DNA of 64,000 nt from the NCBI RefSeq assembly GCF_055900595.2, contig NZ_CM148325.1. The stretch is one strand, 5' to 3'. Each line of letters opens with the position of its first letter. Position 1 is the stretch's first letter. Below, in pieces: positions 40,704 to 44,214 of this stretch. The position numbers and the translations under genes were made by a program. A model generated the notes under the pieces. The model did not search any database. It saw only the letters and a list, made by a program, of their open reading frames with translations, and was not told where the DNA came from.

Positions 40704-42533
40704 ATGTGTGGAATTGTTGGCGCGATCGCGCAACGTGATGTAGCAGAAATCCTTCTTGAAGGTTTACGTCGTCTGGAATACCGCGGATATGACTCTGCCG
40801 GTCTGGCGGTTGTAGATGCAGAAGGTCATATGACCCGTCTGCGTCGCCTCGGTAAAGTCCAGATGCTGGCCCAGGCAGCGGAAGAATATCCTCTGCATGG
40901 CGGCACCGGGATTGCTCACACTCGCTGGGCGACGCACGGCGAACCTTCAGAAGTGAATGCGCATCCGCATGTTTCTGAACACATTGTGGTGGTGCATAAC
41001 GGCATCATCGAAAACCATGAACCGCTGCGTGAAGCGTTAAAAGCACGTGGCTATACCTTCGTTTCTGAAACCGACACCGAAGTGATTGCACACCTGGTGA
41101 ACTGGGAACTGAAACAAGGCGGTACTCTGCGTGAGGCTGTTCTGCGTGCTATTCCGCAACTGCGCGGCGCGTACGGTACGGTAATTATGGACTCCCGTCA
41201 CCCGGATACCCTGCTGGCGGCTCGTTCTGGTAGCCCGCTGGTGATTGGCCTGGGCATGGGCGAAAAATTTATTGCTTCTGACCAGTTGGCGCTGTTGCCA
41301 GTGACCCGTCGCTTTATCTTCCTTGAAGAAGGCGATATTGCGGAAATCACTCGCCGTTCGGTAAACATCTTCGATAAAACTGGCGCGGAAGTGAAACGTC
41401 AGGATATCGAATCCAATCTGCAATATGACGCGGGCGATAAGGGTTTTTACCGCCACTACATGCAGAAAGAGATCTACGAACAGCCGAACGCGATCAAAAA
41501 CACCCTTACCGGGCGCATCAGCCACGGTCAGGTTGATTTGAACGAGCTGGGACCGAACGCCGACGAACTGCTGTCGAAGGTTGAGCATATTCAGATCCTC
41601 GCCTGTGGTACTTCTTACAACTCCGGTATGGTTTCCCGCTACTGGTTTGAAGCGCTGGCAGGTATTCCGTGCGATGTTGAAATCGCCTCTGAATTCCGCT
41701 ATCGCAAATCAGCCGTGCGTCGTAACAGCCTGATGATCACTCTGTCGCAGTCCGGTGAAACCGCGGATACCCTGGCGGGTCTGCGTCTGTCAAAAGAATT
41801 GGGTTACCTTGGATCGCTGGCAATCTGTAACGTTCCTGGCTCTTCGCTGGTACGTGAATCCGATTTGGCGCTGATGACCAATGCGGGTACGGAAATTGGC
41901 GTGGCGTCCACCAAAGCATTCACCACTCAGTTAACCGTGTTGTTGATGCTGGTGGCGAAGCTGTCTCGCCTGAAAGGTCTGGATGCCTCCATTGAGCATG
42001 ATATCGTGCATGGTCTGCAGGCGTTACCGAGCCGTATTGAGCAGATGCTGTCTCAGGACAAACGCATTGAAGCTCTGGCAGAAGATTTCTCTGACAAACA
42101 CCACGCGCTGTTCCTGGGCCGTGGCGATCAGTACCCAATTGCGCTGGAAGGCGCATTGAAGCTGAAAGAGATCTCTTATATTCATGCGGAAGCCTACGCA
42201 GCAGGCGAACTGAAACACGGTCCGCTGGCGCTGATTGACGCGGATATGCCGGTTATCGTCGTCGCACCGAACAACGAACTGCTGGAAAAACTGAAATCCA
42301 ACATTGAAGAAGTTCGTGCGCGTGGTGGTCAACTGTACGTCTTCGCCGATCAGGATGCTGGTTTTGTGAGCAGTGATAACATGCACATCATCGAGATGCC
42401 GCATGTGGAAGAGGTGATTGCACCGATCTTCTACACCGTTCCGCTGCAGCTGCTGGCCTATCACGTTGCGCTGATTAAAGGCACTGACGTTGACCAGCCG
42501 CGTAATCTGGCAAAATCGGTAACGGTTGAGTAA
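40704..42533 (+). CDS. glmS: Glutamine-fructose-6-phosphate aminotransferase (609 aa)
   Basis: N-terminal MCGIVGA nucleophile and tandem SIS domains; ends ...KSVTVE. Confidence 0.96.
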
Positions 42534-42554
42534 TTTTCATCATTGATATAAAAG

Positions 42555-42578
42555 GGCTGCCGACGGGCGGCCTTTTTT
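42555..42578 (+). terminator. glmS terminator hairpin, which is also the canonical Tn7 attachment position (unoccupied here)
   Basis: GGCUGCC-GACG-GGCGGCC stem (one G-U pair) followed by six U, about 22 bp after the glmS stop. No Tn7 ends or tns genes follow. Confidence 0.75.
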
Positions 42579-42838
42579 ATAAAGTGTATCAACGGTTTAT
42601 TATTGATGCACAAATTAATATAAATATATTCTGAATTATTGGTGATGTCCTATTACGCACTTGATTTTTTACTGTTTTAATAATATTTATATAATAAATT
42701 TATATTTAATTTCGCATAATTAATATTATTTTTAGATAAAAATACCCCTTTGGTGTACTATGCCTCTGAATCATAAAATCACTTATTAATTTAAGTTATG
42801 ATTTAGACTGAAGGATATATTATATCAATGGAGTTTGT

Positions 42839-43411
42839 ATGAAACGTAATATTATTGGCGGTGCAATTACGCTGGCATCTTTAATGTTAGCCGGAAATGC
42901 ACTTGCAGAAGATGGCGTTGTTCACTTTGTCGGTGAAATTGTCGATAGCACATGCGAAGTGACTTCCGATACCGCCGATCAAACAGTACCTCTTGGTAAG
43001 GTCAGTAAAAGTGCGTTTTCAGGAGTAGGCAGCCTGGCGTCACCACAGCAATTTAGTATTAAACTGGAAAATTGCCCAGCAACCTATACTCAGGCAGCCG
43101 TCCGTTTCGATGGTACTGAAGCACCTGGCGGAGACGGTGACCTGAAAGTGGGTACACCGCTGACATCAGGTACACCTGGCGATTTTACCGGTACAGGACA
43201 AGCGATTGCGGCAACCGGCGTCGGTATTCGTATTTTTAACCGGGCGGATAATTCTCAGGTTAAACTTTATAACGACTCTGCTTATAGCACAATCGACGCT
43301 GACGGTAAGGCTGAAATGAAGTTTATTGCACGCTATGTTGCTACCAATGCGACCGTAACGGCGGGTACAGCAAACGCTGATTCACAATTCACCGTCGAAT
43401 ATAAGAAATAA
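42839..43411 (+). CDS. lpfA: Fimbrial major subunit, type 1 pilin family (190 aa), lpfA-like
   Basis: Signal peptide, then the pilin N-terminal motif FVGEIVDSTCEV with a conserved Cys pair; first gene of a chaperone-usher operon between glmS and pstS. The lpf name rests on this location plus family resemblance, not on an alignment. Confidence 0.7.
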   Translation: MKRNIIGGAITLASLMLAGNALAEDGVVHFVGEIVDSTCEVTSDTADQTVPLGKVSKSAFSGVGSLASPQQFSIKLENCPATYTQAAVRFDGTEAPGGDGDLKVGTPLTSGTPGDFTGTGQAIAATGVGIRIFNRADNSQVKLYNDSAYSTIDADGKAEMKFIARYVATNATVTAGTANADSQFTVEYKK

Positions 43412-43458
43412 TTAATACAGGGCCTTTTTATTCAGTTGGCTTTGGCCAGGGAGTCGTT

Positions 43459-44190
43459 ATGTCCAGAAAAAGTTGTTTAATTAGGCTCTTTAAAACAACA
43501 ATTTCGTGTAATTTATTGAGGATTATTATTCTAAGCATCTTTTTCCTCCAGCCGACATTGACCTGTGCAGGTGTTGTCATTGGCGGTACACGGGTTGTTT
43601 ATTTGAGTAATAATGCTGATAAATCTATTTCTGTATTTAGTAAGGAAGAAAAAATTCCTTATCTCATCCAGGCATGGGTGGATCCGTTTAATAAAGATGA
43701 TAAAACTAAAGCGCCATTTATTGTTATTCCTCCGGTATCACGGTTAGAACCCGCGCAAGAAAAAATATTACGTATTGTCCACACTAAAGGTTTGTCATTA
43801 CCAGATGATCGAGAGTCTGTCTTCTGGCTAAATATCAAAAATATTCCACCCTCTGCGAGCAGCAAAGAAGCGAACTCGCTGGAAATCGCCGTTAAAACGC
43901 GAATTAAGCTTTTCTGGAGACCGGCATCTATCCGCATGATTCCCGAAGATGCCGCACCAAAGGTGAAGTGGCATCGGGAAGGCCGAAATCTTATTGCTGA
44001 GAACCCTAACCCGATTCATATCAGCGTGATGGATGTCATTGTTGATGGCCATGATGTACCTCTTAACATGATCCGCCCTTTCGAGACGCTCACGTTACCG
44101 TTGCCTGCTAATTCTTCGGGTAGCCAAATGACCTGGCGATTTATTAATGATTACGGTGCGATAAGCGAACCATTAAAGCAAGCGTTGTAA
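43459..44190 (+). CDS. lpfB: Periplasmic pilus chaperone, PapD-like (243 aa)
   Basis: Signal peptide then AGVVIGGTRVVY, typical of chaperone-usher chaperones; operon context. Confidence 0.72.
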   Translation: MSRKSCLIRLFKTTISCNLLRIIILSIFFLQPTLTCAGVVIGGTRVVYLSNNADKSISVFSKEEKIPYLIQAWVDPFNKDDKTKAPFIVIPPVSRLEPAQEKILRIVHTKGLSLPDDRESVFWLNIKNIPPSASSKEANSLEIAVKTRIKLFWRPASIRMIPEDAAPKVKWHREGRNLIAENPNPIHISVMDVIVDGHDVPLNMIRPFETLTLPLPANSSGSQMTWRFINDYGAISEPLKQAL

Positions 44191-44214
44191 GCATTGCATA
44201 AGGATAGGCGAATT

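What the first reader, a model, noticed from the sequence alone, without database searches (positions are those of the whole stretch)
42828..42842. Four-codon upstream ORF overlapping the lpfA start
ATG GAG TTT GTA TGA (M-E-F-V-stop) ends one base after the lpfA ATG at 42839, giving an overlapping ATGA junction. The predicted lpfA Shine-Dalgarno GGAG lies inside this mini-ORF. This could be a translational-coupling or leader-peptide arrangement, or just chance in AT-rich sequence.
Basis: seen in the sequence. Interest (0 to 1): 0.2.

Follow-up and report, generated by a model that had tools for sequence, protein, structure and literature searches.

The report
Incidental four-codon ORF at lpfA start
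A four-codon reading frame really does overlap the start of the fimbrial gene lpfA, but it looks like a side-effect of a conserved ribosome-binding site rather than a regulatory leader peptide, so it is ordinary.

Summary
ATG GAG TTT GTA TGA lies at 42828-42842, its TGA overlaps the lpfA ATG (42839-42841) as ATGA, and the lpfA Shine-Dalgarno GGAG (42830-42833) is inside it. The locus is the E. coli glmS-lpfABCD(O113 type)-pstS region.

The arrangement is not unusual. Three of 41 neighbouring genes have the same kind of mini-ORF. Shuffles of the upstream 60 nt give one of four codons or fewer in 5-12% of cases, and one of any length in 14-21%. The TGA is forced by ATG plus a Lys codon.

The mini-ORF is present in every E. 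coli lpfA-O113 allele sampled, in Pseudocitrobacter, in E. ruysiae, and as a five-codon version in O157:H7 lpfA2. Across 20 ortholog lineages only 9-10 keep an overlapping mini-ORF. Three have the same ATGGAG in frame with lpfA, and 7 have no overlapping mini-ORF. Only Met-Glu is constant, and those two codons are largely the Shine-Dalgarno sequence.

What is conserved is the block AATGGAGTT, not a reading frame. That block is also the 3' strand of a predicted 5'-leader hairpin that covers the Shine-Dalgarno sequence.

Most likely the mini-ORF is a by-product. A ribosome-delivery role by termination-reinitiation is not excluded. Interest is low.

The parts
42828..42842 (+). Four-codon mini-ORF ATG GAG TTT GTA TGA (M-E-F-V-stop)
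   Evidence: Read directly. Variants in relatives are MEFL, MELK, MELQ, MEL, MES and MELYL.
42830..42833 (+). lpfA Shine-Dalgarno GGAG, 5 nt upstream of the lpfA ATG and inside the mini-ORF
   Evidence: Sequence. Duplex with the anti-SD is -5.9 kcal/mol. GGAG is present in 15 of 20 ortholog lineages.
42839..43411 (+). lpfA-O113-type major fimbrial subunit gene (190 aa, with a signal peptide MKRNIIGGAITLASLMLAGNALA)
   Evidence: ORF list. RefSeq annotation of a strain 100% identical over the 467-base query 42534-43000. Pfam PF00419 on homologs.
42811..42815 (+). AAGGA, the only Shine-Dalgarno-like element that could serve the mini-ORF ATG; it lies 12 nt upstream of that ATG, which is long spacing
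   Evidence: Duplex with the anti-SD is -5.5 kcal/mol, with a gap of about 11-12 nt. Invariant in the E. coli alleles. A GGA is kept at this place in about half of the distant orthologs.
42811..42835 (+). 25-nt block AAGGATATATTATATCAATGGAGTT, invariant in all sampled E. coli lpfA-O113 alleles; contains the mini-ORF ATG and the SD
   Evidence: Alignment A1 has invariant columns 278-302; positions 42836 and 42837 vary.
42721..42854 (+). Predicted long imperfect hairpin of the lpfA leader. The SD, the mini-ORF ATG and lpfA codons 1-5 form its 3' strand.
   Evidence: MFE -41.1 kcal/mol, z -2.7 to -3.5 against shuffles. Kept in 13 sequences: 97% of cells paired against 35-53% in slid controls, and 6 pairs with changes on both sides against 0.8 in shuffles. 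The transcription start is unknown.
42745..42764 (+). Upstream pyrimidine/GGTGTAC box (CCCC-TTTGGTGTAC-TAT-GCC) predicted to pair with 42813-42833, including the SD
   Evidence: Pair list. Conserved block TTGGTGTA(C/G)TATGCC in alignment A2.
42765..42807 (+). Inner hairpin (inverted repeat) of the leader
   Evidence: strand folding centroid structure. Inverted repeat I3.

Best explanation
The mini-ORF is a real string of codons, but it is most likely an incidental by-product of the lpfA ribosome-binding site and not a dedicated leader peptide or regulator.

Two things create it. First, lpfA starts ATG-AAA (Met-Lys), which automatically gives a TGA in the +1 frame. Second, the GGAG Shine-Dalgarno sequence, at its usual 5-nt spacing, is preceded by A-T, which gives an ATG 11 nt upstream in that same frame.

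What evolution keeps is the sequence block AATGGAGTT, whichever frame it falls in. The likely reasons are inferred, not shown: the block is the ribosome-binding site, and it is also the 3' strand of a predicted leader helix that covers the SD.

If ribosomes do start at 42828 (inferred, using the distant AAGGA at 42811-42815), they would move 12 nt, terminate on the UGA that overlaps the lpfA AUG, and could restart there with GGAG 5 nt behind them. The expected effect on lpfA output would be small.

Shown: the anatomy, the chance rate, and the conservation pattern. Inferred: absence of function, and the termination-reinitiation path if the mini-ORF is translated.
For: Chance rate. Three of 41 neighbouring genes have the same arrangement. 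In shuffles, 5-12% give a mini-ORF of 4 codons or fewer and 14-21% give one of any length. ATGGAG also precedes rbsD, there in frame.

The stop is forced. All 20 ortholog lineages start ATGA.

Conservation follows the motif, not the frame. Of 20 lineages, 15 have GGAG and 12 have ATGGAG. In 9 of those 12 the ATG is out of frame and overlapping, and in 3 (L021, L023, L028) a 6-nt spacing puts the same ATG in frame with lpfA. In 7 lineages there is no overlapping mini-ORF (for example ACG in L015, ATA in L018, CTG in L022; L085 has a 7-codon uORF in another frame that ends 11 nt inside lpfA).

No constraint on the peptide. Forms seen are MEFV, MEFL, MELK, MELQ, MEL, MES and MELYL, of 3 to 5 codons, ending in either TGA or TAA. 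Only M-E is fixed, and those two codons largely consist of the SD.

Within E. coli the ATG is no more conserved than the 17 nt upstream of it; the whole stretch 42811-42835 is invariant.

The ATG sits in helix 2 of a conserved predicted hairpin, with A42828 pairing U42750 and G42830 pairing C42748. This gives a non-coding reason for its conservation.

The mini-ORF's own SD-like element is 12 nt away, which is a poor spacing.
Against: When GGAG is present, A-T precedes it in 12 of 15 lineages. That is well above the roughly 15-20% expected from base composition, so the ATG is kept more than a neutral flank would be, although shared ancestry inflates this figure.

In O157:H7 lpfA2, which is only about 56% identical in protein and has a different 700-nt intergenic region, the SD-to-ATG spacing grew by exactly 3 nt and the overlapping frame was kept: ATG GAG TTA TAT TTA TGA.

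Short upstream ORFs that exist only to deliver ribosomes to a downstream gene are an accepted possibility (review PMC12548453). A two-codon minigene has been shown to raise expression of a downstream gene in cis (PMC8708949).

No expression data were available to show that the ATG is silent.
Confidence: 0.6

Rival explanations
1. Functional ribosome-delivery mini-ORF. Ribosomes load at the AAGGA/AUG pair at 42811-42830, which is partly in an internal loop of the leader hairpin. They translate four codons, which melts the helix that covers the lpfA SD. They terminate on UGA in AUGA and reinitiate at the lpfA AUG by termination-reinitiation coupling. The mini-ORF would then set or boost lpfA translation.
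For: An ATGA overlap is the classical coupling geometry (PMC6728339; PMC12548453). GGAG lies 5 nt before the restart codon. AAGGA pairs with the anti-SD about as strongly as the lpfA SD does, -5.5 against -5.9 kcal/mol. The RBS is predicted to be about 75% paired, so an unwinding step could matter. An overlapping mini-ORF is kept in 9-10 of 20 lineages, including O157:H7 where the spacing changed by +3 nt.
Against: The mini-ORF is lost or put in frame in about half of the orthologous operons, and those operons still have intact lpfA genes. The 12-nt SD spacing is poor. The chance rate is high. There is no evidence of translation.
Confidence: 0.2
2. The conserved AUGGAG, together with AAGGA 17 nt upstream, is a pair of GGA sites for a translational repressor of the CsrA type. 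The AUG is conserved as part of an A-N-GGA motif and not as a start codon.
For: There are two GGA motifs at 42813 and 42830, 17 nt apart, and the second overlaps the SD. Both are invariant in the E. coli alleles. The natural variant ACGGAG (L015) keeps A-N-GGA while losing the ATG. That CsrA binds paired GGA sites, one of them at the SD, is from my own knowledge and was not tested here.
Against: The upstream GGA is missing in about half of the distant orthologs, for example L020-L023. If only A-N-GGA mattered, the middle base would be expected to vary more than it does (U in 12 of 15). No binding data or motif scoring were available.
Confidence: 0.1
3. 5'-terminal AUG. A promoter whose -10 element is the conserved TATATT/TATAAT block (42816-42821) starts transcription at or near A42828. 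The mRNA would then begin AUGGAG..., and 70S ribosomes would bind the 5' AUG in the leaderless mode, translate the mini-ORF and pass to lpfA.
For: A TATAAT-like hexamer ends 6 nt before the ATG in the window and in L013, L014 and L019, read from the sequences. E. coli mRNAs with a 5'-terminal AUG upstream of an SD-led gene exist and can bind 70S ribosomes (PMC4965119).
Against: There is no convincing -35 element, and the promoter scan did not report this site; its best hit is 42668-42695. AT-rich DNA is full of -10-like hexamers. An alternative register (TATTAT/TATAAT two bases further on) would start transcription after the ATG. The covariation between 42745-42764 and the RBS argues for a longer leader.
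Confidence: 0.05
4. Regulatory leader peptide or attenuator whose translation senses a metabolite, an antibiotic or tRNA charging, in the manner of ilvL, trpL or erm leaders.
For: Only the position of the mini-ORF upstream of the first gene of an operon.
Against: The peptide is not conserved beyond M-E, and its length varies from 3 to 5 codons. The stop lies inside the lpfA start codon, which leaves no room for terminator/antiterminator structures. Rfam found no leader family; all hits were far below their gathering scores.
Confidence: 0.02

Closest known systems
Overlapping stop-start gene pairs (ATGA, -4 nt) coupled by termination-reinitiation (Huber et al. 2019, PMC6728339; review PMC12548453)
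   Same: The junction ATGA is identical, the two frames are co-directional, and an SD lies inside the upstream frame a few nt before the restart codon.
   Different: The upstream partner here is 4 codons, not a gene. Its translation has not been shown. The overlap is not kept across the orthologous operons.
Two-codon minigene mg2 in the axe-txe leader (Kedzierska and Potrykus 2021, PMC8708949)
   Same: A very short ORF just upstream of a gene, acting (there) in cis on the downstream gene's expression, with frame and distance mattering.
   Different: That case was shown by reporter fusions and the present one is untested. It has 2 codons against 4. The mechanism proposed there is mRNA protection, not an ATGA restart.
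5'-terminal uAUG/uORFs on SD-led E. coli mRNAs (Beck et al. 2016, PMC4965119)
   Same: A short upstream AUG-started frame ahead of a canonical SD-led gene, which may bind ribosomes and modulate the downstream cistron.
   Different: This model requires the AUG to be at the mRNA 5' end. The lpfA transcription start is unknown, and the covariation evidence favours a longer leader.
Amino-acid operon leader peptides such as ilvL in this same window
   Same: A short ORF ahead of the first gene of an operon.
   Different: ilvL has 32 codons (99-nt CDS). From my own knowledge, not tested here, it carries regulatory codons and is followed by a terminator/antiterminator. The lpfA mini-ORF has none of these features.

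Membership tests
Translationally coupled overlapping ORF pair (termination-reinitiation) | Co-directional ORFs whose stop and start codons overlap (ATGA or TGATG/TAATG) | tested here: met
   ATGA at 42839-42842. A TAATG version occurs in L014, L019 and L020.
Translationally coupled overlapping ORF pair (termination-reinitiation) | The upstream ORF is translated | not testable with these tools
   No expression data. The only SD-like element (AAGGA) is 12 nt from the ATG. The published Sakai RIBOseq survey considered only ORFs of 30 aa or more (PMC5597208).
Translationally coupled overlapping ORF pair (termination-reinitiation) | Downstream translation depends on upstream translation | not testable with these tools
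   Needs reporter fusions with start-codon mutants.
Translationally coupled overlapping ORF pair (termination-reinitiation) | The overlap is conserved among orthologous operons | tested here: inconclusive
   Kept in all close relatives and in 9-10 of 20 lineages overall. In frame in 3 lineages, and no overlapping mini-ORF in 7.
Regulatory leader peptide / attenuator | Conserved peptide or regulatory codons | tested here: not met
   Only M-E is constant, and those two codons are essentially the SD. The remaining residues and the length vary.
Regulatory leader peptide / attenuator | Alternative RNA structures between the leader ORF and the gene | tested here: not met
   The stop lies within the lpfA start codon, so there is no intervening sequence. 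There was no Rfam leader hit.
5'-terminal uAUG (leaderless-type) uORF | The AUG is at the 5' end of the transcript | not testable with these tools
   The transcription start is unknown. A -10-like TATATT ends 6 nt upstream, but the scan's best promoter-like site is 42668-42695.
Toxic bar-type minigenes (peptidyl-tRNA drop-off) | A 2-6 codon ORF with an efficient SD that causes peptidyl-tRNA accumulation when Pth is limiting | not tested
   The length fits (4 codons), but the SD spacing is poor. The phenotype can only be tested experimentally.
LPF (lpfA-O113 / lpf2-type) chaperone-usher operon downstream of glmS | Major subunit, chaperone, usher and tip/minor subunit genes between glmS and pstS | tested here: met
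   ORFs. RefSeq names lpfA/B/C-O113 in a strain that is 100% identical over the 467-base query 42534-43000. Pfam Fimbrial, PapD and Usher domains on the neighbours of orthologs.

The most novel reading that the evidence does not exclude
The AUGGAG mini-ORF start is a selected part of a conserved translational switch for glmS-linked LPF fimbriae across Enterobacteriaceae. In this reading a long leader hairpin hides the lpfA SD. Ribosomes entering at the upstream AAGGA/AUG translate the 3-5 codon frame, open the helix and restart at the overlapping lpfA AUG. Fimbrial subunit synthesis would then be gated by whatever controls that entry, such as temperature melting of the A-U-rich stem or a CsrA-type protein on the two GGA sites.
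Probability: 0.1. Interest if true: 0.45.

Novelty: not a real feature. Interest (0 to 1): 0.12.

Why it matters
If the mini-ORF were functional, it would add a post-transcriptional layer to the control of long polar fimbriae, which are adhesins of STEC and other pathogenic E. coli. It would also be one more natural example of a tiny ORF whose only job is to hand ribosomes to the next gene.

As the evidence stands, its main value is as a caution. ATGA-overlapping mini-ORFs arise easily wherever an A-T precedes a GGAG Shine-Dalgarno sequence and the gene begins Met-Lys. Conservation among close alleles alone does not show function.

The conserved leader hairpin that covers the SD, found in passing, is the more promising lead for lpf regulation.

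Tried and rejected
Rfam scan of 42500-42950 at permissive E-values: only weak hits far below their gathering scores.

Promoter and terminator scan: 6 promoter-like sites against 3.8 expected in shuffles, none adjacent to the mini-ORF, and no terminator called, although the glmS terminator inverted repeat is visible.

Literature searches for an lpf2/lpfA-O113 promoter, transcription start or Fur site found nothing usable. The 'Fur' hits were matches to the word 'further'.

A protein-pattern scan of genome contigs returned only 2 loci. Orthologs were therefore gathered through the search for homologous proteins followed by the look-up of encoding contigs, and through a degenerate coding-region DNA pattern in metagenomes.

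Alternative lpfA start: rejected. The 42828 ATG is out of frame, and the 42839 start gives a canonical signal peptide and is the RefSeq start.

Small genes of 20 aa or more in the glmS-lpfA spacer: only short AT-rich ORFs with no support.

The paralogous lpf1 operon (OI-141 type, and Salmonella Typhimurium lpf) could not be retrieved with the remaining look-ups and was not compared.

Full report
**Context.** The window carries glmU, glmS (40704-42533), then a four-gene chaperone-usher operon (42839-47820), then pstS. RefSeq names the first three operon genes lpfA-O113, lpfB-O113 and lpfC-O113 and the fourth 'fimbrial protein', in a strain that is 100% identical over the 467-base query 42534-43000. 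The finding concerns the last 11 nt of the 305-nt AT-rich glmS-lpfA spacer.

**Observation.** Positions 42828-42842 read ATG GAG TTT GTA TGA. The lpfA ATG is at 42839-41, so the TGA (42840-42) and the ATG form ATGA. GGAG at 42830-33 lies 5 nt before the lpfA ATG and shares its first G with the mini-ORF ATG.

**Chance.**
- The TGA costs nothing. lpfA begins ATG-AAA, all 20 ortholog lineages examined begin ATGA, and 15 of 41 neighbouring genes do so.
- Given that stop, only an in-frame ATG with no intervening stop is needed.
- Among 41 annotated genes in the same 50 kb, ilvM, ilvL and lpfA each have an ATG mini-ORF of 6 codons or fewer whose stop overlaps the start codon.
- Shuffles of the 60 nt upstream of lpfA produce such an ORF in 14.5% (mononucleotide) to 21.4% (dinucleotide) of cases. 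One of 4 codons or fewer appears in 5.2-7.3%, or in 12.4% if GGAG is held in place.
- The hexamer ATGGAG also precedes rbsD, there in frame.
- A single occurrence therefore carries no weight.

**Conservation in close relatives.**
- The locus is present in 1,974 of 5,426 complete E. coli genomes.
- The window's allele is rare: 14 genomes are at 99% identity or more, and 4 are at about 94%.
- Ten allele classes spanning 80-100% identity all keep the mini-ORF. The only changes are TTT to TTC (synonymous) and GTA to TTA (Val to Leu).
- The ATG is part of a 25-nt invariant block (42811-42835), so this conservation is not specific to the ATG.
- Pseudocitrobacter vendiensis (LpfA 89% identical), a second Pseudocitrobacter (84%) and E. 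ruysiae (74%) also keep it.

**Conservation in distant orthologs.**
- A protein search followed by contig look-ups showed that orthologs at 55-74% identity sit immediately downstream of glmS in Salmonella enterica, S. bongori, Enterobacter, Klebsiella and Kluyvera (the Superficieibacter upstream gene was truncated and not identified), so they are positional orthologs.
- A degenerate coding-region pattern in metagenomes added further lineages.
- The O157:H7 Sakai lpfA2 region was read directly.
- Twenty lineage representatives were classified. Fifteen have GGAG and 12 have ATGGAG.
- Nine have an out-of-frame ATGGAG mini-ORF whose stop overlaps the lpfA start. It has 3 codons ending TAA-TG, 4 codons ending ATGA, or 5 codons in O157:H7 (ATG GAG TTA TAT TTA TGA).
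- One lineage (L061) has a different ATG at -8 that gives MIL-stop.
- In three lineages (L021 Kluyvera, L023 Enterobacter, L028) the spacing is 6 nt, so the same ATG is in frame with lpfA and no mini-ORF exists.
- Seven lineages have no overlapping mini-ORF. Examples are ACG in L015, ATA in L018 and CTG in L022. L085 has a 7-codon uORF in another frame.
- The peptides are MEFV, MEFL, MELK, MELQ, MEL, MES and MELYL. Only Met-Glu is constant, and those two codons are essentially the SD.

**Reading of the pattern.**
- The conserved unit is the sequence AATGGAGTT, not a reading frame, a length, a stop type or a peptide.
- The A-T before GGAG is kept in 12 of 15 GGAG lineages. That exceeds the compositional expectation of about 15-20%, although shared ancestry inflates the figure.
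- The A-T is kept just as well when the ATG is in frame with lpfA. This argues against selection for an ATGA-coupled mini-ORF as such.

**A non-coding reason for the conservation.**
- The region 42721-42854 folds into one long imperfect hairpin (-41.1 kcal/mol, z -2.7 to -3.5).
- In it, 42745-42764 (CCCC/TCTC-TTTGGTGTAC-TAT-GCC) pairs with 42813-42833, which includes the SD and the mini-ORF ATG.
- 42721-42734 pairs with lpfA codons 1-5.
- The structure is kept in 13 sequences: the E. coli alleles, two Pseudocitrobacter and E. ruysiae. Of the cells, 97% are paired against 35-53% in slid controls. Six pairs changed on both sides, against 0.8 in shuffles and 1-3 in slid controls.
- Distant orthologs give weaker z-scores (+0.3 to -2.6) but most have a local hairpin at about -70 to -30.
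- Caveats: AT-rich DNA is full of inverted repeats, the structure was derived from these same sequences, and the transcription start is unknown. The best promoter-like site, 42668-42695, would put the whole hairpin in the leader.

**Mechanism if the mini-ORF is translated (inferred).**
- The only SD-like element for the 42828 ATG is AAGGA at 42811-15. Its anti-SD duplex of -5.5 kcal/mol is similar to the lpfA SD's -5.9, but it lies 12 nt upstream, which is long.
- A ribosome starting there would cover the lpfA RBS and move 12 nt.
- It would terminate on the UGA of AUGA and could restart at the lpfA AUG with GGAG 5 nt behind it. This is the termination-reinitiation route described for ATGA gene pairs (PMC6728339; PMC12548453).
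- The review notes that short upstream ORFs may exist solely to deliver ribosomes.
- A two-codon minigene raises txe expression in cis (PMC8708949).
- 5'-terminal uAUGs on SD-led E. coli mRNAs bind 70S ribosomes (PMC4965119).
- These are resemblances, not demonstrations for lpfA.

**Rejected readings.** A classical leader peptide or attenuator is excluded by the lack of peptide conservation and by the absence of any sequence between the mini-ORF stop and the gene start. Rfam gives nothing. No published data address this ORF. The Sakai RIBOseq survey considered only intergenic ORFs of 30 aa or more (PMC5597208), and searches for the lpf2 promoter or transcription start were unproductive.

**Verdict.** The sequence feature is real and stable within E. 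coli. It is expected by chance at roughly the 5-20% level, is dispensable in about half of the orthologous operons, and carries no coding signal. The best explanation (0.6) is a by-product of a conserved RBS and leader element. A ribosome-delivery mini-ORF remains possible (0.2). Interest is low (0.12).

Noticed in passing
window 42721-42854: The lpfA leader is predicted to form one long hairpin that buries the SD and the start codon, with an upstream anti-SD-like box at 42745-42764. It folds better than shuffles (z -2.7 to -4.9 in five relatives) and shows modest covariation across E. coli, Pseudocitrobacter and E. ruysiae. This could be a translational control element such as a thermosensor or a protein-gated switch.
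   Followed up: partly
window 42534-47820; loci L012-L024, L107: In most orthologs whose upstream gene could be read (Escherichia, Pseudocitrobacter, Salmonella enterica and bongori, Enterobacter, Klebsiella, Kluyvera), the lpfA-O113/lpf2-type operon sits immediately downstream of glmS. This is the side where Tn7 is known to insert. The fimbrial locus is positionally fixed but very divergent in sequence.
   Followed up: partly
window 42534-43411: The window's lpfA allele and its upstream region are rare in E. coli: 14 of 5,426 complete genomes are at 99% or more, whereas about 1,940 carry alleles at about 80-84% DNA identity. The proximal 130 nt upstream of lpfA is nearly identical to Pseudocitrobacter vendiensis, which suggests recombination or transfer between genera.
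   Followed up: partly
window 42811-42833: Two GGA motifs, AAGGA and AUGGAG, lie 17 nt apart and the second overlaps the SD. This resembles a CsrA-type dual binding site. It was not tested.
   Followed up: no
L025 (same coordinates as the window) 1350-1370 and 3231-3251, minus strand: ilvM and ilvL each have a 6-codon ATG mini-ORF ending in an ATGA overlap with their start codons (ATGTTGGAGAAATTATCATGA and ATGCAAGAAAAGACAAAATGA). rbsD is preceded by ATGGAG in frame. This shows how common such arrangements are.
   Followed up: yes
L011 (JAIJJM010000969.1): A 1-kb contig binned as a 'Collinsella sp.' MAG carries the E. coli glmS 3' end and lpfA-O113. This is almost certainly a mis-binned Escherichia contig.
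   Followed up: no
window 44194-44215: The mechanical ORF for the usher gene lpfC starts at TTG 44194, whereas RefSeq annotates ATG 44215 in the near-identical strain. The true start is unresolved.
   Followed up: no
window 42543-42583: The glmS terminator-like inverted repeat (GGCTGCC...GGCGGCC followed by a T run) is visible and conserved in all alleles, but the simple terminator scan did not call it.
   Followed up: partly
L107 9621-10004 (O157:H7 Sakai): In O157:H7 Sakai the lpf2 chaperone gene is annotated as a pseudogene (ECs_4668, 'stgB'), and the glmS-lpfA2 spacer is about 700 nt against 305 nt here.
   Followed up: no
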